Shown here piece by piece: positions 4,651 through 39,382 of a stretch of 64,000 nt of DNA. The notes beneath the pieces were generated by a model that ran no database searches, was not told the DNA's origin, and worked only from the letters and a program-made list of their open reading frames with translations. Each line of letters opens with the position of its first letter. The stretch's first letter is position 1. The stretch is taken from NCBI GenBank assembly GCA_934168305.1, contig CAKPNF010000002.1:32308-96307 (forward strand). The letters are read 5' to 3'. The position numbers and the translations under genes were made by a program. Origin of the DNA: an uncultured Clostridia bacterium. GTDB taxonomy: Bacteria; Bacillota; Clostridia; TANB77; CAG-508.

Positions 4651-4704
4651 ACCAATGGGGACGTTCTTAAATTGGTTGAAAAAGACAAAAAAAGGAGGAA
4701 TTTT

Positions 4705-5898
4705 ATGAAAATTTTAGTCTTAAACTCAGGAAGTTCATCACTTAAATATCAAGTAATTGATATGGAAACAGAAGAAATGCTTGTAAAAGGATATTTTGAA
4801 AGAATAGGTCAACAAAATTCTTTTTTAACTCATAAAGTGAATGGAATTAAACATAAATTTGAAAAACATGTAGAAAATCATGAACAAGCATTAGAATTTG
4901 TCTTTACAAGATTAACAAATGACCATTATGGAGTTTTAAAAAGTTTAGATGAATTGGGTGGAATAGGGCATAGAGTTGTTCAAGGTGGAGAAAAATATTC
5001 ACAGCCAGTAATAATTACAGAAGAAGTTATAGAAGAAATAAAAAGATGTAGTGATTTAGCTCCATTACATAATCCGGCAGCAATTTTGGGGATAAATGCT
5101 TGTAAAAAAATAGCACCAAATATTCCAATGGTTGCAGTATTTGATACAGCATTTCATCAAACAATTCCAAAGGAAAGATATATTTACCCAATACCATATG
5201 AATATTATAAAAAATATGGAATTAGAAAATATGGAGCACACGGAACATCACATCAATATGTAGCATATAGAGTTGCTGAGATATTAGGAAAAGATATTAA
5301 AGATTTAAAAATAGTAAATTGCCATTTAGGTCAAGGTGCAAGTGTATGTGCAATTCAAAATGGTAAATCTGTAGAAACAAGTATGGGACTTACACCACTA
5401 GGTGGGATACCAATGGGAACAAGAAGCGGAGATTTGGACCCATCAGTAGTAACATACATAATGAAAAAAGAAAATCTAACACCGCAAGAAATAGAAGATA
5501 TATTAAACAAAAAATCAGGAGTTTATGGAGCGTCTAGAGGAGTATCAGTAGATTTTAGAGACATAGAAAACGAAGCATTAGCAGGAGGAACACATGCTCA
5601 ATTAGCTTTGGATATATATCATTATTTAACAGCATCGTATGTTGCAAAATGTGCAGTAGCTATGGGAGGAATTGATGTACTTACATTTACTGCAGGTGTT
5701 GGAGAAAAAGGACCAATATCAAGAAAAGCTATATGCGACCAACTTGCATTCTTTGGAGTAAAAATAGATGATGAAAAAAATAAAATAAGAGGCGAAGAAG
5801 TTGAAATTTCAGCTGAAGACTCAAATGTAAAAATCTATGTTATTCCAACAAATGAGGAGTTAATGATTGCAAGAGAAACTAAGAATTTAGTCAAATAA
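4705..5898 (+). CDS. ackA: acetate kinase (copy 1)
   Basis: SD aaaaggagga precedes MKILVLNSGSSSLKYQ. Motifs HRVVQGG, DTAFHQT, KYGAHGTSH. Confidence 0.9.
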   Translation: MKILVLNSGSSSLKYQVIDMETEEMLVKGYFERIGQQNSFLTHKVNGIKHKFEKHVENHEQALEFVFTRLTNDHYGVLKSLDELGGIGHRVVQGGEKYSQPVIITEEVIEEIKRCSDLAPLHNPAAILGINACKKIAPNIPMVAVFDTAFHQTIPKERYIYPIPYEYYKKYGIRKYGAHGTSHQYVAYRVAEILGKDIKDLKIVNCHLGQGASVCAIQNGKSVETSMGLTPLGGIPMGTRSGDLDPSVVTYIMKKENLTPQEIEDILNKKSGVYGASRGVSVDFRDIENEALAGGTHAQLALDIYHYLTASYVAKCAVAMGGIDVLTFTAGVGEKGPISRKAICDQLAFFGVKIDDEKNKIRGEEVEISAEDSNVKIYVIPTNEELMIARETKNLVK

Positions 5899-5902
5899 AT
5901 GA

Positions 5903-6001
5903 GGGATTAAGGGGCCACCACACAAAATCCCTCTTAAAATAAAAAGAAATATAATATATAAATAAAAAAAGAGGGATTTTGTGTGGTGGCCCCTTAATCC
6001 C
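5903..6001. repeat. GC-rich palindromic element copy 1: 33-bp perfect inverted arms (GGGATTAAGGGGCCACCACACAAAATCCCTCTT) around a 33-bp AT core
   Basis: Arms at 5903-5935 and 5969-6001 are exact reverse complements. A T-run follows. Sits between the ackA1 stop and the ackA2 SD, so it probably acts as an intrinsic terminator or stable stem-loop. Confidence 0.85.
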
Positions 6002-6023
6002 TTTTATAGAAGGAGAATAGAAA

Positions 6024-7214
6024 ATGAAAATATTAGTATTAAATTGTGGTAGTTCATCACTAAAGTATCAATTAATAAACATGGATACAGAAGAAGTAAT
6101 GGCTTCTGGAAAATATGAAAGAATAGGAGAAGCAGAAGCATTTATAACACACAAAGTAAATGGACAAAAAATAGAAATAAAAAATCCAGCATATAATCAC
6201 TCAGAAGCAATTGATTTTACATTAAAACAATTTACAAATCCAGAATATAAAGTAATAGATAGTTTAGACGAAATAAATGCAATTGGACACAGATTAGTTC
6301 ATGGTGGAGAAAAAATTGCGGAATCTGTTGTAATCGACGACAATGTTGTAAAAGTATTAGAAGAATATACAGACTTAGCACCTTTACACAACCCTGCTTG
6401 TATATTAGGAATAAAGGCATGTCAAGAAGTTATGCCTGGAAAACCAATGGTAGGTGTATTTGATACAGCATTCCATCAAACAATGCCAAAGGATAAATTT
6501 ATTTATCCAATACCATATGAATATTATAAAAAATATGGAGTAAGAAAATATGGATTCCATGGAACATCACATATGTTTGTATCACAAAGACTTGCTGAAA
6601 TTGAAAACAAATCATTAGAAGGTACAAAAATTGTAACATGTCACTTAGGACAAGGCTCAAGTATATGTGCTATAAAAGACGGAAAATCTGTAGATACAAG
6701 TATGGGATTAACACCACTTGGTGGACTTCCAATGGTTACAAGAAGTGGAGATTTAGACCCATCAGTTGTAACATATATAATGAAAAAAGAAAACTTAACA
6801 CCTGCACAAATGGAAGATTTATTAAATAAAAAATCAGGACTTTCTGGTATGTCAGGATTAGTTCCAGACTTTAGAGAAATTGAAATCGCTTCAAATGAAG
6901 GACAACCAGATGCTAAAATGGCAGTTGAAAACTTCAATTACACAATTGCAAGTTATGTTGCAAAATATGCAGTTGCAATGAATGGTGTTGATTACATTAT
7001 ATTTACAGGTGGAATTGGTGAAAATCAAATTAATATCCGTAAAGGAATATGTGAAAAATTAGAGTTTATGGGTGTTAAATTAGATGTTGACGCTAATAAT
7101 ATGAGAGGTGAAGAGAAAGTTATTTCTACACCAGATTCTAAAATTAAAGTTTATGTAATTCCTACAAATGAGGAATTAATGATAGCAAAAGAAACTTTGA
7201 GATTAACAAAATAA
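6024..7214 (+). CDS. ackA: acetate kinase (copy 2, tandem paralog)
   Basis: SD aaggag precedes MKILVLNCGSSSLKYQL. Same motif set (HRLVHGG, DTAFHQT, KYGFHGTSH). Roughly 60% identical to copy 1 by eye. Confidence 0.9.
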   Translation: MKILVLNCGSSSLKYQLINMDTEEVMASGKYERIGEAEAFITHKVNGQKIEIKNPAYNHSEAIDFTLKQFTNPEYKVIDSLDEINAIGHRLVHGGEKIAESVVIDDNVVKVLEEYTDLAPLHNPACILGIKACQEVMPGKPMVGVFDTAFHQTMPKDKFIYPIPYEYYKKYGVRKYGFHGTSHMFVSQRLAEIENKSLEGTKIVTCHLGQGSSICAIKDGKSVDTSMGLTPLGGLPMVTRSGDLDPSVVTYIMKKENLTPAQMEDLLNKKSGLSGMSGLVPDFREIEIASNEGQPDAKMAVENFNYTIASYVAKYAVAMNGVDYIIFTGGIGENQINIRKGICEKLEFMGVKLDVDANNMRGEEKVISTPDSKIKVYVIPTNEELMIAKETLRLTK

Positions 7215-34803: not shown

Positions 34804-34961
34804 TGAAATGCACCTCCATTCAATTTCTAAACATATTTTAACCTAAAAATAAAAAATTATTCTATAAAATTTGTCTTTTTATAAAAAAAGGGATATAATA
34901 ATAACGAAAAAAATTTTTATGAATAAAATAAAACATAAACAGGTATCAGGAGGTAATAATT

Positions 34962-36362
34962 GTGAATTTTGAAAATAAAAAATTAGAAGAATTTAATGAA
35001 TACATAAGATTTAGGAAAGTAGCAGTAATAGGGTTAGGAGTAAGCAATTTACCACTATTAGACTATCTATATGAAAAAAAAGCACAAGTGACTGTCTTTG
35101 ATGAAAGAACAGTTGATGAAATCCCACAAAATATAATAACAAAAATAAATACATATGAATTCAAATATTCATTTGGAAAAAATTGCCTTGAAAAATTAAA
35201 AGGATTTAACATTATATTTAGGTCACCAAGTTGCCTACCAACAAGAAAAGAATTACAAGAAGAAGCGGATAGAGGAGCAATTGTTACAACAGAAGTAGAA
35301 ATGTTAATGGAAATGTGTCCATGTAAAATTATAGGAGTTACAGGAAGTGATGGCAAAACAACAACAACAAGTATGATAAATGCAATATTAAAAAAAGCAG
35401 GATACAACACTTTCTTAGGGGGAAATATAGGAACACCATTATTTACAAAATTGCCAGAAATAAAACCAGATGATATTGTAGTATTAGAATTAAGTAGTTT
35501 TCAATTAATGAATATGCAAGTAAGTCCAGATATAGCAGTTATTACAAATATAACACCAAATCATTTAAATATTCACAAAGATTATCAAGAATACATAGAT
35601 GCCAAAAAGAACATTTTTAAAAATCAAGATGAAAGCGGAATATTAATTTTAAATTATGATAATGATATAACAAGAAGCTGTGCAAAAGAAGCAAAAGGAA
35701 AAGTTATATTCTTTAGCAGTAAAGAAAAATTAGATAATGGCTTTATAGTAGATGAAGAGATAATAAAAGAATGTGAAGATAAAGTTAGAAAACATATTTT
35801 AAATACAAATGAAGTAATTTTAAGAGGAAACCATAATTTTCAAAACATTGCAACTGCATTAGCTGCTACAAAAACTTTAGTAGACACAGACATTGCTGTC
35901 CAAGCAATAAAAGAATTCAAACCTGTTGAACACAGAATAGAATTTATAAGAGAAATTGATGGAGTAAAATGGTATAATGACTCTGCAAGCTCTTCACCAA
36001 CAAGAACATTATCAGGAATAAATGCTTTTAAAGAAAATATAGTTTTAATAGCCGGAGGATATGACAAGAATTTAGATTACGAACCACTTGCAAAGCCAGT
36101 ATTAGATAAAGTTTCAACATTAATATTAATAGGTCAAACTGCGGAAAAAATATTTGATGCAGTAAAAAATGAAGTAGATAAACAAAATAAAAAAATTGAT
36201 ATTTATATGTGTGATTCTTTAGAGCAAACAATAGATATTGCAAAAAAAACATCTAAAAAAGGTGATGTAGTATTATTTTCACCTGCAAGTGCAAGTTTTG
36301 ATATGTTTAAAAATTTTGCAGATAGAGGCGAAAAATTTAAAAATCTAGTAAATAATATTTAA
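34962..36362 (+). CDS. murD: UDP-N-acetylmuramoyl-L-alanine--D-glutamate ligase
   Basis: GTG start behind aggaggt. GVTGSDGKTTTTSMI (Mur ligase P-loop). Length and order match MurD. Confidence 0.85.
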   Translation: MNFENKKLEEFNEYIRFRKVAVIGLGVSNLPLLDYLYEKKAQVTVFDERTVDEIPQNIITKINTYEFKYSFGKNCLEKLKGFNIIFRSPSCLPTRKELQEEADRGAIVTTEVEMLMEMCPCKIIGVTGSDGKTTTTSMINAILKKAGYNTFLGGNIGTPLFTKLPEIKPDDIVVLELSSFQLMNMQVSPDIAVITNITPNHLNIHKDYQEYIDAKKNIFKNQDESGILILNYDNDITRSCAKEAKGKVIFFSSKEKLDNGFIVDEEIIKECEDKVRKHILNTNEVILRGNHNFQNIATALAATKTLVDTDIAVQAIKEFKPVEHRIEFIREIDGVKWYNDSASSSPTRTLSGINAFKENIVLIAGGYDKNLDYEPLAKPVLDKVSTLILIGQTAEKIFDAVKNEVDKQNKKIDIYMCDSLEQTIDIAKKTSKKGDVVLFSPASASFDMFKNFADRGEKFKNLVNNI

Positions 36363-36417
36363 CCAAAACAAAACCTTTCTCATATGATATAGAAGTAAAA
36401 AATGAGGGAGGTTTATT

Positions 36418-37071
36418 ATGTATAACGAAACATATGATGACTACATAAGAAGTATTTTAGGATATCCACCAATGAGGTCATATGAAGATGATTTCGCAGA
36501 TTATAGAAATCAAAATATGATGAATTCAAATATGAATATAAATTCAATGAATACAGCATCAAATATGGATTTAGAAAATTGTTATCCTGAGATATACAAA
36601 ATTGTTTATCCAATGGTACAGAAAAAATGCGACAGTGTTGGAACATCTGTATCAAATGATGATATACAAAATATGACAAATGAAATATATTTTGCTTTAG
36701 AGGGAAGAGCAGAAGTTCAACTTAACATCAATTTAGAAAACGAAGTAAGAAAATCGGAAACAACAAATTCAAATACAACTAAAATATCAGAAAAAAAACC
36801 AAATGTAAAAATAAGTGAAACATCAAATGAAAAAAGAGAAACAAGGCAAATAAACACAGGACTTAGGGATTTGATACAAATATTATTAATTAGAGAATTA
36901 TTAAGGAGAAGGAGACCAGGCGAAAGACCAGGAAGACCACCTATGCCACGTCCTCCAATGCCAGGACCTCGACCACCAATGAGACCACCTTTTAGACCGG
37001 GATTTGGACCAGGAGGAACAATGTTTAATAGGGATTTTGAAATATCAAATTATGATATTTATGAAAACTAA
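36418..37071 (+). CDS. hypothetical protein with a Pro-rich repetitive C-terminus (possible spore coat/structural protein)
   Basis: SD gagggagg. C-terminal RPGERPGRPPMPRPPMPGPRPPMRPPFRPGFGPGG tract. Confidence 0.35.
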   Translation: MYNETYDDYIRSILGYPPMRSYEDDFADYRNQNMMNSNMNINSMNTASNMDLENCYPEIYKIVYPMVQKKCDSVGTSVSNDDIQNMTNEIYFALEGRAEVQLNINLENEVRKSETTNSNTTKISEKKPNVKISETSNEKRETRQINTGLRDLIQILLIRELLRRRRPGERPGRPPMPRPPMPGPRPPMRPPFRPGFGPGGTMFNRDFEISNYDIYEN

Positions 37072-37239
37072 AAAATGAAAAATTTTCCAAATATGCAAAT
37101 TAAATTTTGCATATTTTTTTTTATTTTGATAAACAATAATTTAAGAAAGCAAATTTTAGAATTTTTTTGTTGTTCAGTAGAGTATAACATAGAAAATAAA
37201 AATTTGTTTAATATAAAGTAAGAGAAAGGTGGTATAAAA

Positions 37240-37686
37240 ATGAAAGTAAAAGACTGTATGTGTGAAAACGTATGTTGTGTAAAACCAGAAACAAAAATAG
37301 ATGAGGTTGCAAAATTAATGAGCGAAAATCATATTGGATGTATTCCAGTATGTGATAGTAATAATTGTATTTGTGGAATTTTAACAGACAGAGACATTTT
37401 ATTAAGAACAGTAGCATGTAATAAAGAAGCAAATAATACAACAGCGAGTGATATAATGTCAACAGATGTATGTACTTGCAAAGAAGATGATGAAATGTCA
37501 AATGCAGAAACTAAAATGGGAAATAATCAAATAAGAAGATTACCTGTTTGTGATGAAAATAATCATGTAATAGGAATTTTAACATTAGGCGATTTAGCAC
37601 AAAATGATATTCAACTTGGTACACAACAAGTTTGTAATACAATAAGTAATATATGCGATTGCAATACAAATAAGAATAATCAATAA
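37240..37686 (+). CDS. CBS domain pair protein with Cys-rich tail
   Basis: Two CBS-like units (IGCIPVCD...GILTDRDIL; IRRLPVCDENNHVIGILTLGDL). Confidence 0.65.
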   Translation: MKVKDCMCENVCCVKPETKIDEVAKLMSENHIGCIPVCDSNNCICGILTDRDILLRTVACNKEANNTTASDIMSTDVCTCKEDDEMSNAETKMGNNQIRRLPVCDENNHVIGILTLGDLAQNDIQLGTQQVCNTISNICDCNTNKNNQ

Positions 37687-37707
37687 AAGTGGATTAATGG
37701 ACCAAAA

Positions 37708-37811
37708 GGGATTAAGGGGCCACCACACAAAATCCCTCTTTTACAATCAATTTAACAACAATTACATTAGTTTAAAAAAAGAGGGATTTTGTGTGGTGGC
37801 CCCTTAATCCC
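37708..37811. repeat. GC-rich palindromic element copy 2 (37-bp perfect arms around a 38-bp core)
   Basis: Arms at 37704-37740 and 37779-37815 include the same 29-bp core as copy 1. A degenerate partial arm (ggattaatggacc) lies just upstream at 37691. Confidence 0.85.
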
Positions 37812-37874
37812 TTTTTATACTAAGAATATAAAATGGAATATTACATATAATAATTACATAGGAGAAATTTGGTT

Positions 37875-38972
37875 ATGATTATTGATATGTCTTATTGGAC
37901 AAGAGTATTAAGAAGATTTTTATATGTAATATTAATATTAGTAGGATTATTTTTGGCATTTAAACTATCAATATTTTATATGCCTTTTTTAATAGCATTC
38001 ATAATATCTTTAATAATAGAACCAGCAATAAGATTCCTTATGAGAAAATTAAAATTAACAAGAAAAAAAAGCTCAATAATTATTTTTGTTATAGTATCAG
38101 CAATAATAATCGGTACATTAATATGGGGAGTAGTAGCATTAATTTCGGAAGCTTCAAATTTATTACAAGGGTTAAATGGATATGTAGAAAAAGCATACAT
38201 ATTATTTCAAAATTTTACTGGCAAATTTGATATGAGCAAAATTCATTTACCAAATGAAATAAATACAATAATACAAAATTCAACAGGAGGATTATTAAAT
38301 ACAGCATCTAATTGGATTAGAAATGCTTTAACAGGATTATTAAATATTGTAACTTCAATACCAACAATTGCAATTTATTTTGTTGTAACGATAATGGCAT
38401 TATATTTAATATGTGTTGATAAGGTATATATTTTAGATCAAATTGAACATCACTTTCCAAAAAAATGGGTATTTAAAGTAGGAAATCATATTAGAGATTT
38501 GACAAAAACTTTAGGTGGATATTTAAAAGCAGAAGCTACTTTAATATTAGTTTCTTTTATAATATCTTTAATTGGATTATATATATTAAAATTTGCAAAT
38601 TTTAATATTGAATTTCCGTTGTTAATGGCATTATTTATAGGATTTGTTGATGCATTACCAATTCTAGGTTCTGGAACGGTTATGGTTCCATGGGCTATAA
38701 TTTCAGCATTAAATGGGGATTTGAAATTAGGTATTGCAATTATTGTTTTATTTATAATAATGTCTGTTATAAGACAATTTTTAGAACCTAAATTAGTTAG
38801 TAAACATATAGGTACTCATCCTATTTTTACTTTGATTGCAATGTATACAGGATTTAAATTTATTGGTGTTATTGGTATGTTGATTGGTCCTATTATACTG
38901 ATTATTATAAAAAATGTTTTTGCAACTTTGATAGATGAGGGTGTATTTAAAAGTATTATGGATACAAAATGA
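37875..38972 (+). CDS. AI-2E family transporter (YtvI-like integral membrane protein)
   Basis: SD aggaga. Eight TM helices. Conserved PILGSGTVMVPWA region typical of UPF0118/AI-2E. Confidence 0.65.
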   Translation: MIIDMSYWTRVLRRFLYVILILVGLFLAFKLSIFYMPFLIAFIISLIIEPAIRFLMRKLKLTRKKSSIIIFVIVSAIIIGTLIWGVVALISEASNLLQGLNGYVEKAYILFQNFTGKFDMSKIHLPNEINTIIQNSTGGLLNTASNWIRNALTGLLNIVTSIPTIAIYFVVTIMALYLICVDKVYILDQIEHHFPKKWVFKVGNHIRDLTKTLGGYLKAEATLILVSFIISLIGLYILKFANFNIEFPLLMALFIGFVDALPILGSGTVMVPWAIISALNGDLKLGIAIIVLFIIMSVIRQFLEPKLVSKHIGTHPIFTLIAMYTGFKFIGVIGMLIGPIILIIIKNVFATLIDEGVFKSIMDTK

Positions 38973-39035
38973 TTTTTGACAACATTATTTAATTTATGGT
39001 ATAATTGTTTTAGTTTATGTTTAAGGAGAAATGTT

Positions 39036-39371
39036 ATGGTAAATGAATTCAAAGTTGTAACAATTATGAATGAAGCAATGTTAAAAACACTCAAAGAAAA
39101 TCAGCAAAATTATGACGAAAATTTAAAAATTCAAAAATACTTAGAAGACGAAACTTTCTTTTTTAAAATAAAAAAAGAAGATGCACAAATTGTACTAAAA
39201 AAAATTGGAGTACAAGAAGGGCAATTAGAAAAGGTATATAAAAAATTAATAGCACCAAATATTTATTATGAATTATTAAATTGTGGAAAGATTAAAGAAA
39301 ATGATAATAATATAATCATTAAATATGACAAATACAATTCAGAAAATTTATTTAATAAAAAGAAGAAATAA
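39036..39371 (+). CDS. hypothetical small cytoplasmic protein
   Basis: SD taaggag precedes the ATG at 39036. No recognisable motif. Confidence 0.35.
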   Translation: MVNEFKVVTIMNEAMLKTLKENQQNYDENLKIQKYLEDETFFFKIKKEDAQIVLKKIGVQEGQLEKVYKKLIAPNIYYELLNCGKIKENDNNIIIKYDKYNSENLFNKKKK

Positions 39372-39382
39372 TGGAGGAAAAA

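What the first reader, a model, noticed from the sequence alone, without database searches (positions are those of the whole stretch)
5903..6001. Family of GC-rich perfect inverted-repeat elements with variable cores (three copies in the window)
All six arms share an identical 29-bp core, GGGATTAAGGGGCCACCACACAAAATCCC, extended to 33-37 bp of perfect complementarity in copies 1 and 2. The three copies (5903..6001, 37708..37811, 53419..53598) enclose unrelated AT-rich cores of 33, 38 and 122 bp. Each sits between the stop codon of one + strand gene and the SD of the next (ackA1/ackA2, CBS/AI-2E, relA/MBL), and each is followed by a T-run. The 59% GC arms stand out in 28% GC DNA. Candidate explanations are a dispersed long-stem intrinsic-terminator or REP-like family, or a MITE with conserved terminal inverted repeats and variable cargo. 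Copy 2 also carries a degenerate partial arm (ggattaatggacc) just upstream, which fits mobility or recombination.
Basis: seen in the sequence. Interest (0 to 1): 0.6.

Follow-up and report, generated by a model that had tools for sequence, protein, structure and literature searches.

The report
REP-like hairpin repeats in gut Clostridia
The three GC-rich inverted repeats are real copies of a previously undescribed family of small palindromic DNA repeats scattered between genes in uncultured low-GC human-gut Clostridia; they behave like the REP/REPIN or MITE "junk" repeats known from other bacteria, so this is a new example of a familiar kind of element, not a new biological system.

Summary
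The 29-mer GGGATTAAGGGGCCACCACACAAAATCCC occurs six times, as three inverted pairs, against zero expected by chance.

Public scans found about 130 more arms in low-GC (25-34%) gut Clostridia contigs and none in phage or plasmid collections. They show that:
- The basic unit is a single arm: a 7-8 bp stem (GGGATT/AATCCC plus a covarying foot pair) around a conserved 17-nt loop.
- Arms occur alone, and as 31 doublets that always have the GGGATT ends facing outward.
- Doublets enclose 12-335 bp of unrelated cargo, much of it visibly palindromic.
- A second arm type has the same stem and a different loop, and sits at orthologous sites.

One gene junction can be empty, hold a solo arm, a doublet, or a different hairpin family. 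Arms stay about 99-100% identical while flanks diverge 5-15%. There are no target-site duplications. The core of copy 2 is exactly inverted in one related strain, but not in 17 other assemblies.

Best reading: a REP/REPIN-like non-autonomous palindromic repeat superfamily with terminator-like side effects. The mobilising enzyme was not found: no HUH/Y1 gene turned up in about 0.8 Mb of sampled sequence. The elements fail the canonical REP criteria (no GT[AG]G, large loop) and the canonical MITE criterion (no TSD).

Interest is moderate.

The parts
5903..5931 (+). Copy 1, left arm (type A, patch ACAA), 4 nt after the ackA1 stop codon
   Evidence: Exact 29-mer; sequence read
5932..5972 (.). Copy 1 spacer, 41 bp and AT-rich. 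The first and last 4 nt (TCTT/AAGA) extend the stem.
   Evidence: Identical in 9 of the 10 other assemblies, L100-L109; L104 differs by one base in the spacer
5973..6001 (-). Copy 1, right arm, followed by TTTT and the ackA2 Shine-Dalgarno sequence
37691..37707 (+). Degenerate remnant of an older arm (ggattaatggacc + aaaa) directly 5' of copy 2. The fuller version GGGATTAAGGGGCTACCATCCAAAA survives in L004 and L133.
37708..37736 (+). Copy 2, left arm
37737..37782 (.). Copy 2 spacer, 46 bp. In L004 it is present as its exact reverse complement (45/46). In 17 other assemblies it has the window orientation.
37783..37811 (-). Copy 2, right arm, followed by TTTTT
53419..53447 (+). Copy 3 (long form), left arm, 3 nt after the relA stop codon
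53448..53569 (.). Copy 3 core, 122 bp: a conserved nested palindrome. Inner inverted repeat TTTGTTATTATATATTAATATT at 53464-53485 and 53531-53552; asymmetric centre CATAGCTGGGGTCTACCTATAGGTC at 53497-53521.
   Evidence: The same core lies between arms in L005 (two copies), L037, L050, L067 and L094. Shortened derivatives occur in L019/L096, L047, L054, L072 and L098
53570..53598 (-). Copy 3, right arm, followed by GAAAAATTTT and the Shine-Dalgarno sequence of the MBL-fold gene

Best explanation
The three loci are members of a dispersed, non-autonomous palindromic repeat superfamily that is restricted, as far as sampled, to a clade of uncultured low-GC human-gut Clostridia. It works like REP/REPIN (BIME) elements.

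The unit is one arm, N-GGGATT-[17-nt conserved loop AAGGGGCCACCACnnnnA]-AATCCC-N', a small hairpin. Two arms with their GGGATT ends outward make a long hairpin (the doublet, REPIN-like). The inside of a doublet tolerates deletion, nested insertion of other palindromes, and occasional inversion.

Inferred, not shown:
- Copies are made, replaced and lost at gene junctions by an enzyme acting in trans on the folded single strand. The most likely candidate is an HUH/Y1 (RAYT- or IS200-like) nuclease encoded once elsewhere in the genome.
- The near-invariance of the arm reflects that sequence-specific recognition and/or continual replacement from master copies.
- Once in place, the A-run/hairpin/T-run context makes many copies behave as (bidirectional) terminator-like or mRNA-3'-end-protecting stem-loops between genes.

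The flipped core of copy 2 is a by-product of recombination or template switching between 39-bp perfect inverted repeats. It is not a programmed switch.
For: Shown:
1. Non-random, dispersed family. Six exact arms in the window against 0 expected. Fifteen loci in 4 Clostridia MAGs. Eighty-four metagenome loci, nearly all gut contigs at 25-34% GC. 139 arms in total, 113 with distinct flanks. At least 42 arms in one gut metagenome assembly (tallied). Contigs often end inside arms.
2. The single arm is a unit. There are 56 distinct solo arms. The foot pair -1/+1 is Watson-Crick in 64-75% of arms against 45% after shuffling (0/2000 shuffles). Pair types there are AU:41 and CG:22, with covariation in 0/500 shuffles.
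3. All 31 doublets are '+ then -'.
4. A second arm type, GGGATT-xGGGGACGGGTCTyy-AATCCC, sits at orthologous positions with identical flanks (L001 vs L035; L042 vs L082). It also sits in mixed A+B clusters (L041, L062).
5. Turnover at orthologous junctions. Empty / solo / doublet+203 bp (L035/L001/L032). Solo vs long form (L015/L067). Doublet vs half element. Different cargo at the same site. Both arms absent in L094 where L005 has a doublet. The relA/MBL junction has five states.
6. No target-site duplications (flanks).
7. Arm positions outside a 4-nt patch are 99-99.7% identical where the adjacent 200 nt are 85-95% identical.
8. Solo arms between co-directional genes are sense-oriented 18:5.
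9. 67% of solos have a T-rich 3' side and 71% an A-rich 5' side. Median solo fold is -12 kcal/mol.
10. Copy 2 core: exact reverse complement in L004, but same orientation in 17 other assemblies.

From the literature: REPs occur singly or as inverted doublets (REPINs/BIMEs) and are mobilised by a single-copy RAYT (PMC6006769, PMC3337134). RAYT group 1 occurs in Clostridia (PMC5581495).
Against: - No HUH/Y1 transposase was found. tblastn with remembered IS200/IS608 TnpA sequences and an HUH...Y motif scan of 1,456 open frames in about 0.8 Mb of arm-bearing loci plus the window gave nothing. The A+B cluster in L040 is not flanked by such a gene. Whole genomes could not be searched.
- Canonical REP features are missing: no GT[AG]G at the hairpin foot, and a 17-nt loop instead of 2-5 nt (criteria from PMC6006769).
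- Copy number looks like tens per genome, not hundreds.
- The evidence that arms insert or excise singly rests on one comparison whose spacer homology is only suggestive (p about 0.08).
- Sequence invariance could equally reflect host selection on function.
- Terminator or stabiliser activity is untested. Copy 3 lacks a T-run. The consensus terminator scan does not call any copy, because the loops exceed 8 nt.
Confidence: 0.55

Rival explanations
1. Classical MITE: the doublet is a deletion derivative of an insertion sequence. The 29-bp arms are terminal inverted repeats bound by a DDE transposase. Solo arms are decay products.
For: - The long form (arms + 122-bp core) recurs at at least five different loci with about 90-98% identity.
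- All 31 doublets have the same polarity.
- Other cargo families (203/204, 334/335 bp) also recur between arms.
- Solo arms at sites where relatives hold long forms fit decay.
Against: - No target-site duplication flanks any doublet (examined for the long forms from the same table).
- No full-length element or transposase lies between arms. The only 0.8-kb interval between two arms encodes an acyl-ACP thioesterase.
- Solo arms are as numerous as paired arms and keep perfect sequence plus a covarying foot pair.
- Cargo between identical arms is unrelated and can be as short as 12 bp.
- No similar ends occur in the plasmid or phage collections.
Confidence: 0.17
2. Host-maintained regulatory hairpins. 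These would be intrinsic, often bidirectional terminators or mRNA-stabilising stem-loops within operons. They would be kept by purifying selection and spread or homogenised by gene conversion, with no dedicated mobility enzyme.
For: - The positions inspected lie after stop codons.
- A-run/hairpin/T-run context in about 70% of solos.
- 18:5 sense bias.
- The arm is far more conserved than neighbouring coding DNA.
- The TCCA variant keeps an inner stem through G.U pairs only on the sense strand.
- Stem-loops in clostridial operons are known to set transcript stoichiometry (abstracts of PMC4423207, PMC8219983, PMC9045158).
Against: - Selection for a hairpin does not explain an identical 17-nt loop at dozens of loci. 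A copying process is still needed.
- 5 of 23 solos are antisense.
- Copy 3 and several solos lack a T-run.
- The same junction is empty in some relatives (L035, L150) and holds unrelated hairpins in others, so no particular sequence is required there.
- 6-8 bp of stem is too short for ordinary homologous gene conversion (own knowledge).
Confidence: 0.2
3. A regulon of invertible DNA switches (invertons). The arms would be sites for one site-specific recombinase that flips promoter-bearing cores.
For: The 46-bp core of copy 2 is the exact reverse complement in strain L004. It contains TTTACA-17-TACATT pointing at the downstream AI-2E gene. The centre of the long form also occurs in both orientations relative to its asymmetric inner flanks (L067 vs window).
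Against: - 17 other assemblies show the window orientation at copy 2, and copy 1 never varies.
- Promoter-like sites in and around the cores are at or below chance.
- Spacers as short as 12-25 bp cannot carry a switch.
- Solo arms are common.
- No serine recombinase was detected in the sampled loci: the Hin probe gave only a chance-level match. Tyrosine recombinases were not probed.
- Long perfect inverted repeats invert their spacers without dedicated enzymes (own knowledge: minute inversions in hairpin loops, template switching at quasi-palindromes).
Confidence: 0.04
4. An uptake-signal-like or other protein-binding genomic 'word'. This would be analogous to Neisseria DUS or Haemophilus USS, which often sit as inverted pairs forming terminators. 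It would be maintained by biased recombination.
For: A GC-rich invariant word in AT-rich DNA, in both orientations, often as inverted pairs after genes, conserved across species.
Against: - Density is about 1 arm per 10 kb in the window, and the copies inspected are intergenic, whereas uptake sequences are about 1 per kb and common in genes (own knowledge).
- 29 nt is much longer than known uptake words.
- Sequence-specific DNA uptake is not known in Firmicutes (own knowledge).
- Presence/absence at precise unit boundaries looks like insertion or excision, not point-mutational drift toward a word.
Confidence: 0.03

Closest known systems
REP / BIME / REPIN elements with their RAYT (TnpA_REP) nuclease (Enterobacteria, Pseudomonas and others)
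   Same: - Short extragenic palindromic units, found singly, as inverted doublets that fold into one long hairpin, and in mixed clusters of related unit types.
- No target duplications.
- Several unit families per genome.
- Lineage-restricted and long-lived.
- Located after genes, where they can affect termination or mRNA stability.
(Definitions from PMC6006769, PMC3337134.)
   Different: - No 5' GT[AG]G guide tetranucleotide.
- The stem is only 6 conserved bp plus 1-2 covarying bp, with a conserved 17-nt loop. Canonical REPs have a 7-20 bp stem and a 2-5 nt loop.
- Spacer length and content between the two units are highly variable (12-335 bp).
- Tens rather than hundreds of copies.
- No RAYT gene found so far.
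Bacterial MITEs and whole-length palindromic repeats (Correia/NEMIS of Neisseria, ERIC/IRU of enterobacteria, RUP and BOX of pneumococcus)
   Same: - 100-400 bp non-coding elements with terminal inverted repeats, folding end to end.
- Intergenic and co-transcribed with neighbours.
- Size variants arise by internal deletion or internal insertion (for ERIC, from my own knowledge of Hulton 1991 / Sharples and Lloyd 1990).
   Different: - No target-site duplication. Correia duplicates TA and RUP duplicates TA (own knowledge).
- No parent IS with matching ends.
- The terminal repeat also exists on its own in intact form.
- Unrelated cargo between identical ends.
IS200/IS605-derived miniature elements (PATEs) and the single-strand 'peel and paste' mechanism
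   Same: - Hairpin-forming ends.
- No inverted-repeat-dependent DDE chemistry needed.
- No target duplication.
- Strand/orientation bias expected, and an 18:5 bias is seen for solo arms.
   Different: - IS200/IS605 ends carry different left and right subterminal hairpins on the same strand, and insert 3' of a fixed tetra- or pentanucleotide.
- Here both ends are the same unit in opposite orientation.
- No fixed flanking word is seen.
Invertons (fimS, Bacteroides Mpi-controlled promoters, C. difficile RecV switches)
   Same: Inverted repeats bracket a segment that is found in both orientations in different strains (copy 2).
   Different: - Inversion is rare (1 of 18 assemblies).
- Spacers are mostly too short for a switch and not promoter-enriched.
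- The repeats are 29-39 bp, much longer than recombinase core sites.
- No serine recombinase found in the sampled loci (tyrosine recombinases not probed).
- Solo repeats abound.

Membership tests
Canonical REP (RAYT-associated) | Short imperfect palindrome, extragenic, many dispersed copies | tested here: met
   Hairpin unit with a covarying foot pair. About 130 arms in related genomes, with the inspected copies intergenic. Copy number appears to be tens per genome.
Canonical REP (RAYT-associated) | Conserved GT[AG]G tetranucleotide 0-2 nt 5' of the hairpin foot (PMC6006769) | tested here: not met
   The 5' flanks are AAGA, AAAC, TTTC, AACC and so on. There is no GTAG/GTGG at the foot. GTGG occurs only inside the loop on the minus orientation.
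Canonical REP (RAYT-associated) | Basal stem of 7-20 paired nt with a loop of 2-5 nt (or a bulged long hairpin) (PMC6006769) | tested here: not met
   Type A in the window has a 6+1-2 bp stem and a 17-nt loop. Type B and the TCCA/CCCA variants of type A do form a bulged two-part stem with a 4-6 nt loop, so the wider superfamily partly meets this.
Canonical REP (RAYT-associated) | A single-copy RAYT/TnpA_REP gene flanked by the cognate REPs (REPtron) | tested here: inconclusive
   No Y1/HUH open frame in about 0.8 Mb of arm-bearing loci plus the window.
REPIN | Two REPs in inverted orientation with one fixed polarity, forming one hairpin, as the replicating unit; singlets as remnants | tested here: met
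   31 of 31 doublets are '+ then -', and they fold as one hairpin. Solo arms sit at sites where relatives have doublets. That the doublet replicates as a unit is inferred from recurrence of the long form at at least 5 loci.
REPIN | Spacer of characteristic length within a family | tested here: not met
   Spacers range from 12 to 335 bp and belong to several unrelated sequence families.
MITE (DDE-type) | Terminal inverted repeats | tested here: met
   29-bp arms, with 34-39 bp of perfect complementarity in copies 1 and 2.
MITE (DDE-type) | Direct target-site duplication flanking the element | tested here: not met
   Outer flanks of the doublets are not direct repeats. They tend instead to be complementary (A-run/T-run).
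MITE (DDE-type) | A related autonomous IS with the same ends | tested here: inconclusive
   None in the sampled loci, plasmids or phages. Complete genomes were not searched.
Inverton | Both orientations present in a population; a promoter or other directional signal in the invertible segment; a cognate recombinase | tested here: not met
   One flipped strain against 17 unflipped at copy 2, and none at copy 1. Promoter-like sites are at chance level. The Hin-type (serine recombinase) probe was negative; tyrosine recombinases were not probed. Read-level heterogeneity is not testable here.
Intrinsic terminator | GC-rich stem, short loop, U-tract immediately 3'; transcripts end there | tested here: inconclusive
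   Stem and T-run are present at copies 1 and 2 and at 67% of solos. Copy 3 has no T-run. The consensus scan calls none because the loops exceed 8 nt. Transcript ends are not testable with these tools.
Any Rfam RNA family | Match at gathering threshold | tested here: not met
   No hit in the window or in nine cargo-bearing loci. The only matches are sub-threshold ones to plant miRNA-precursor hairpin models.

The most novel reading that the evidence does not exclude
The arms are not decaying selfish DNA. They would be sequence-invariant 'sockets' recognised by an as-yet-unknown, non-RAYT enzyme that repeatedly swaps hairpin loops and palindromic cargo at fixed gene junctions. Examples of such swaps are type A to type B at identical flanks, and different cargo at the same site. 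This would be a cassette-exchange system for intergenic terminator/insulator modules in reduced low-GC gut Clostridia, kept under host-level selection.
Probability: 0.1. Interest if true: 0.75.

Novelty: new variant of a known kind. Interest (0 to 1): 0.4.

Why it matters
- REP/REPIN-type repeats have been characterised almost entirely in Proteobacteria. A family in uncultured gut Clostridia with a different hairpin design (conserved large loop, no GT[AG]G) would extend where and how such elements exist. It also gives a concrete bait, the 29-mer, for finding their mobilising enzyme.
- The repeats fragment short-read assemblies of these organisms: many contigs end inside arms. They also mark recombination or rearrangement points.
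- If they terminate or stabilise transcripts, they shape expression at housekeeping junctions such as pta-ackA-ackA and relA-MBL.
- The finding does not by itself reveal a new mechanism.

Tried and rejected
- Rfam at gathering threshold on the whole window and on nine cargo-bearing loci, and at a permissive E-value on copy 3. Only generic long-hairpin (plant miRNA precursor) sub-threshold matches.
- Promoter/terminator consensus scans around all three copies. Nothing above chance, so the 'promoter in an invertible core' idea was dropped.
- A transposase or recombinase near arms. tblastn with remembered IS200, IS608 and Hin sequences, and an HUH...Y regex on 1,456 open frames, gave nothing. The 0.8-kb interval between two arms in L044 encodes an acyl-ACP thioesterase. 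The A+B cluster in L040 is flanked by a surface protein, a CAP-like protein and a Nudix-like ORF.
- The three Pfam-less ORFs just downstream of copy 2 were tested against Pfam, NCBIfam and PADLOC in case they encoded the missing enzyme. No informative hits.
- Phage and plasmid origin: 0 exact hits in viral contigs, and no BLAST similarity in the plasmid or phage collections.
- Literature search for the arm sequence strings returned 0 papers.
- Target-site duplications: none.
- Flipping of solo arms at orthologous loci: none found.
- Independent insertion of single arms (L005 vs L094): spacer homology is only suggestive at p about 0.08, so it is kept as a lead and not as a result.
- tRNA-like, CRISPR-repeat, attC/integron, dif/Xer-site and CsrA-site resemblances were considered from the sequence alone. 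They were dropped for lack of any matching architecture and were not formally tested.
Full report

Yes. The 29-mer GGGATTAAGGGGCCACCACACAAAATCCC is present six times in the window with no mismatch. The three pairs are at 5903/5973, 37708/37783 and 53419/53570. No dinucleotide-preserving shuffle gave a match, even with three mismatches allowed (sequences).

As RNA the three loci fold at -66.6, -70.0 and -93.4 kcal/mol, 13-16 standard deviations below shuffles.

Minor corrections:
- Arm GC is 55% and window GC is 26.7%.
- Perfect complementarity is 34 bp in copy 1 and 39 bp in copy 2.
- Spacers between the 29-mers are 41, 46 and 122 bp.
- Copy 3 is not followed by a T-run.

An arm profile finds no further copies in the window apart from the partial arm at 37691-37704.

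**2. The family outside the window.**

- The exact 29-mer occurs in 15 stretches of four GTDB genomes. All are uncultured 'Clostridia'/'Clostridium sp.' MAGs with 26-30% GC.
- The conserved 18-mer GGATTAAGGGGCCACCAC occurs in 84 metagenome stretches. All but five high-GC chance hits are gut contigs with 24-43% GC (nearly all 25-34%) that carry full arms.
- There are no hits in viral contigs, no similarity in the plasmid or phage collections, no Rfam family and no paper containing the sequence.
- In all I catalogued 139 arms, 113 with distinct flanks.
- One single-sample gut assembly alone (ORLY01) holds at least 42. Many contigs, especially k-mer unitigs, end inside an arm, as expected for a dispersed repeat.
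- L004 is 96% identical to window 34883-38970, so the window belongs to the same species as MAG CAYQBQ01.

**3. Anatomy of the unit.**

Arm positions 1-19 and 24-29 are almost invariant. A 4-nt patch at positions 20-23 defines subfamilies: ACAA (the window), TCCA, ACCA, CCCA, CCCC, ATCA, AAAA and others.

The ends GGGATT/AATCCC are complementary. The bases just outside them covary:
- -1/+1 is Watson-Crick in 64-75% of arms against 45% when flanks are shuffled (0 of 2000 shuffles).
- Pair types there are A-U in 41 arms and C-G in 22, and the whole-structure covariation score was reached by 0 of 500 shuffles.

So one arm is a hairpin with a 7-8 bp stem and a conserved 17-nt loop.

In the TCCA/CCCA/CCCC subfamilies the loop forms a second stem (GGGG with CUCC or CCCC) closed by CCACCA. 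With TCCA this needs a G.U pair that exists only on the GGGATTAAGG strand. The ACAA subfamily of the window has lost this inner stem.

A second arm type (B), GGGATT-xGGGGACGGGTCTyy-AATCCC, has the same outer stem but a different interior that folds into a continuous bulged hairpin (-18 kcal/mol).

**4. Arrangements.**

Arms occur in three arrangements.

- *Solo arms.* There are 56 with distinct flanks (28 of them at least 450 bp from a contig end). They are typically embedded as A-run / N-arm-N' / T-run: 71% have an A-rich 5' side, 67% have a T-rich 3' side, and the median fold is -12 kcal/mol.
- *Doublets.* There are 31, every one '+ then -', that is, GGGATTAAGG ends outward. Spacers run from 12 to 335 bp.
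- *Mixed clusters.* Examples are A(+)-B(+)-B(-) in L041 and B(-)-A(-) in L062.

The spacers fall into unrelated sequence families, and most of the long ones are visibly palindromic:
- The 122-bp core of window copy 3 has an inner inverted repeat and an asymmetric centre. It recurs between arms in L005 (twice), L037, L050, L067 and L094.
- The 23-58 bp spacers of L019/L096, L047, L054, L072 and L098 are central-deletion derivatives of that core.
- Other cargo families are 203/204 bp (L032, L082), 334/335 bp (L021, L093), 164 bp (L089), and about 330 bp between type B arms in L040, against about 85 bp in the otherwise 99%-identical L041.
- Direct partial arms immediately 5' of a full arm (window copy 2, L004, L028, L054, L099) look like relics of earlier occupants.
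- No doublet is flanked by a direct repeat.

**5. Dynamics at orthologous junctions.**

Flank-to-flank comparison of loci shows that the same gene junction can be in different states.

- Upstream of truB: empty with overlapping stop and start (L035, about 73% flank identity), a solo arm (L001/L059), or a doublet with 203-bp cargo (L032).
- L015 has a solo arm exactly where L067 has the long form.
- L079 keeps one arm plus half a core where L013 has a 19-bp doublet.
- L010 and L054 have different cargo at one site.
- L094 (94-97% flank identity) lacks both arms of the L005 doublet but keeps a spacer-like 27 nt. This hints that arms can come or go singly, but the spacer similarity is only suggestive (p about 0.08).
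- L094:2672 is a decayed arm (4 substitutions) where L005 has a perfect one.
- L001 has a type B arm where L035 and L077 have type A, with the same flanks (AAATC...GAAAAAATGC). L042 has a type B doublet where L082 has a type A doublet plus cargo.

The window's own junctions behave the same way:
- *Copy 1* is unchanged in ten other assemblies apart from base substitutions in L104 (three in its left arm). More distant relatives carry an unrelated palindrome of about 170 bp at the ackA1/ackA2 junction.
- *Copy 3's* relA/MBL junction has five states among relatives: empty, two other small hairpins, a type A doublet with a 23-bp spacer, and the type A long form.
- *Copy 2* exists as a fused two-arm hairpin without a core (L133), or with the core in either orientation.

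Despite this turnover, arms at orthologous positions are 99-99.7% identical outside the 4-nt patch where the adjacent 200 nt, mostly coding, are only 85-95% identical. When arms do differ, the change is usually a multi-base switch of the patch. This looks like replacement, not drift.

**6. The inversion.**

The 46-bp spacer of copy 2 in L004 is the exact reverse complement (45/46) of the window's, between identical arms and flanks. The centre of the long form likewise occurs in both orientations relative to its asymmetric inner flanks (L067 and L005 vs window).

However:
- Seventeen other fully assembled copies of copy 2 have the window orientation.
- Copy 1 never varies.
- Solo arms do not flip.
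- Promoter-like hexamers in the cores are at chance level.

I therefore treat inversion as an occasional consequence of 29-39 bp perfect inverted repeats. That such repeats invert their spacers by recombination or template switching is my own knowledge; it was not tested here. I do not treat it as a programmed switch.

**7. Context.**

Of 58 distinct elements with at least 300 bp on both sides:
- 37 lie between co-directional open frames, 9 between convergent ones, and 2 between divergent ones.
- Solo arms between co-directional genes have the GGGATTAAGG strand as sense strand in 18 cases and antisense in 5.

Orthologous loci in different species are not fully independent, so this bias is indicative only. 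It fits either selection at the RNA level or strand-biased insertion relative to replication.

**8. Most likely mechanism.**

*Shown:* a lineage-restricted, dispersed, intergenic palindromic repeat superfamily. It has a hairpin unit, fixed-polarity doublets, mixed clusters, no target duplications, frequent gain, loss and replacement at junctions, and near-invariant unit sequence.

*Inferred:* copies are produced and replaced by a trans-acting enzyme that recognises the folded arm. The closest known working model is the REP/REPIN-RAYT system, in which REPs occur singly or as inverted doublets and are processed by a single-copy HUH/Y1 nuclease (PMC6006769, PMC3337134). RAYT group 1 has been reported in Clostridia (PMC5581495).

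*Also inferred:* once inserted, the A-run/hairpin/T-run context gives many copies terminator-like or 3'-end-protecting activity. This could matter inside operons such as pta-ackA1-ackA2; compare the clostridial stem-loop work listed.

*Not shown:* the enzyme. Probes for Y1 transposases and a Hin-type invertase, and a motif scan of 1,456 open frames in about 0.8 Mb, found nothing.

**9. Rivals.**

- *DDE-type MITE.* Supported by recurrence of the long form. Weakened by the absence of target duplications, of any parent IS, and by intact solo arms.
- *Host-maintained terminators or stabilisers spread by gene conversion.* This explains position, sense bias and conservation. It does not explain why an identical 17-nt loop is copied to dozens of sites, nor why junctions can be empty or hold unrelated hairpins.
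- *Invertons and uptake-signal-like words.* Both are unlikely, for the reasons given under section 6 and in the rival entries.

**10. Comparison and membership.**

The family works like REP/BIME/REPIN elements and resembles whole-length palindromic MITEs such as ERIC or Correia in its size variants. It is not a canonical member of either:
- The GT[AG]G foot motif and the short-loop rule for REPs are not met.
- Spacer length is not fixed as in REPINs.
- The target duplication of MITEs is not met.
- RAYT or IS association is unresolved.

I therefore class it as a new variant of a known kind.

**11. Significance and limits.**

The result is a solid description of an undescribed repeat family. It is not a new mechanism.

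The more unusual features deserve follow-up:
- Loop swapping between types A and B at identical flanks.
- Cargo exchange at fixed junctions.
- Arm invariance across species.
- A recurrent GGGGAC(G) motif in the loops of several unrelated-stem hairpins.

With present evidence these features do not require anything beyond REP-like biology.

Limits:
- Loci were selected by the arm itself.
- Metagenome assemblies may be chimeric at repeats.
- No complete genome, read-level data or transcript data were available.

Noticed in passing
window 4651-4676: Another small GC-rich hairpin, ACCAAT-GGGGACGTTCTTAA-ATTGGT, lies between the pta stop codon and the likely ackA1 ATG (4705). It is not followed by a T-run. 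The same ACCAATGGGGACG string is nested between type A arms in L015:6961, and its remnants (TGTGAACCAATGG) form the 12-nt spacers of L010, L052 and L005:2957.
   Followed up: partly
L141-L149 (about 551-600), L151-L160 (about 522-600), L026:7148/7237, L033:7454/8347, L070:7917: Other hairpin families have different stems (TGTCCATTT/AAATGGACA; GAACA/TGTTC) but loops that share GGGGACG with type B arms. They occupy the relA/MBL junction in relatives and recur elsewhere. The recurrent G-rich loop motif on unrelated stems is unexplained.
   Followed up: partly
L110:2262-2500 (also L111, L112): In more distant relatives the ackA1/ackA2 junction holds an unrelated palindromic element of about 170 bp. 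Its ends are TTTTCCTGAAGTATATATATAATATTTTT and its interior contains GTGGGGACCGAC / GTTGGGGCGGCG. The same junction has therefore been colonised independently by different palindromes.
   Followed up: no
window 38976-42200 vs L004:4102-4967: This is a strain-variable segment just downstream of the AI-2E gene. The window has three ORFs (131, 341 and 369 aa) with no Pfam, NCBIfam or PADLOC match, plus an NTPase_I-T (DUF84) protein. The 96%-identical strain L004 has an 865-bp segment encoding a 241-aa cytidylyltransferase-like ORF instead.
   Followed up: partly
L023:1456, L020:4420, L009:3481; L080:1246, L014:7827, L044:12637: Some contigs join the 5' flank of an arm from one locus to the 3' flank of an arm from another locus. 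This is either a real rearrangement by recombination between arms or a chimeric assembly at the 29-nt repeat.
   Followed up: no
window 4672-7214: Tandem acetate kinase paralogues that are only 60% identical follow pta. The arrangement pta-ackA-ackA is conserved in all related assemblies examined.
   Followed up: partly
L088:290-780 (reverse strand): Next to a type A solo arm, an extra ORF of about 130 codons lies between two copies of the same Shine-Dalgarno/start region (GCAATTAAGAGGAGGTAGAyAAAATGCCTAATAAA). This is a local duplication or insertion that is absent from L035, L001 and L077.
   Followed up: no
L040:6774-7140 vs L041:2030-2145: Between the same pair of type B arms, in 99%-identical strains, one carries an extra palindromic insert of about 245 bp and the other does not. 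This is a recent cargo gain or central deletion.
   Followed up: partly
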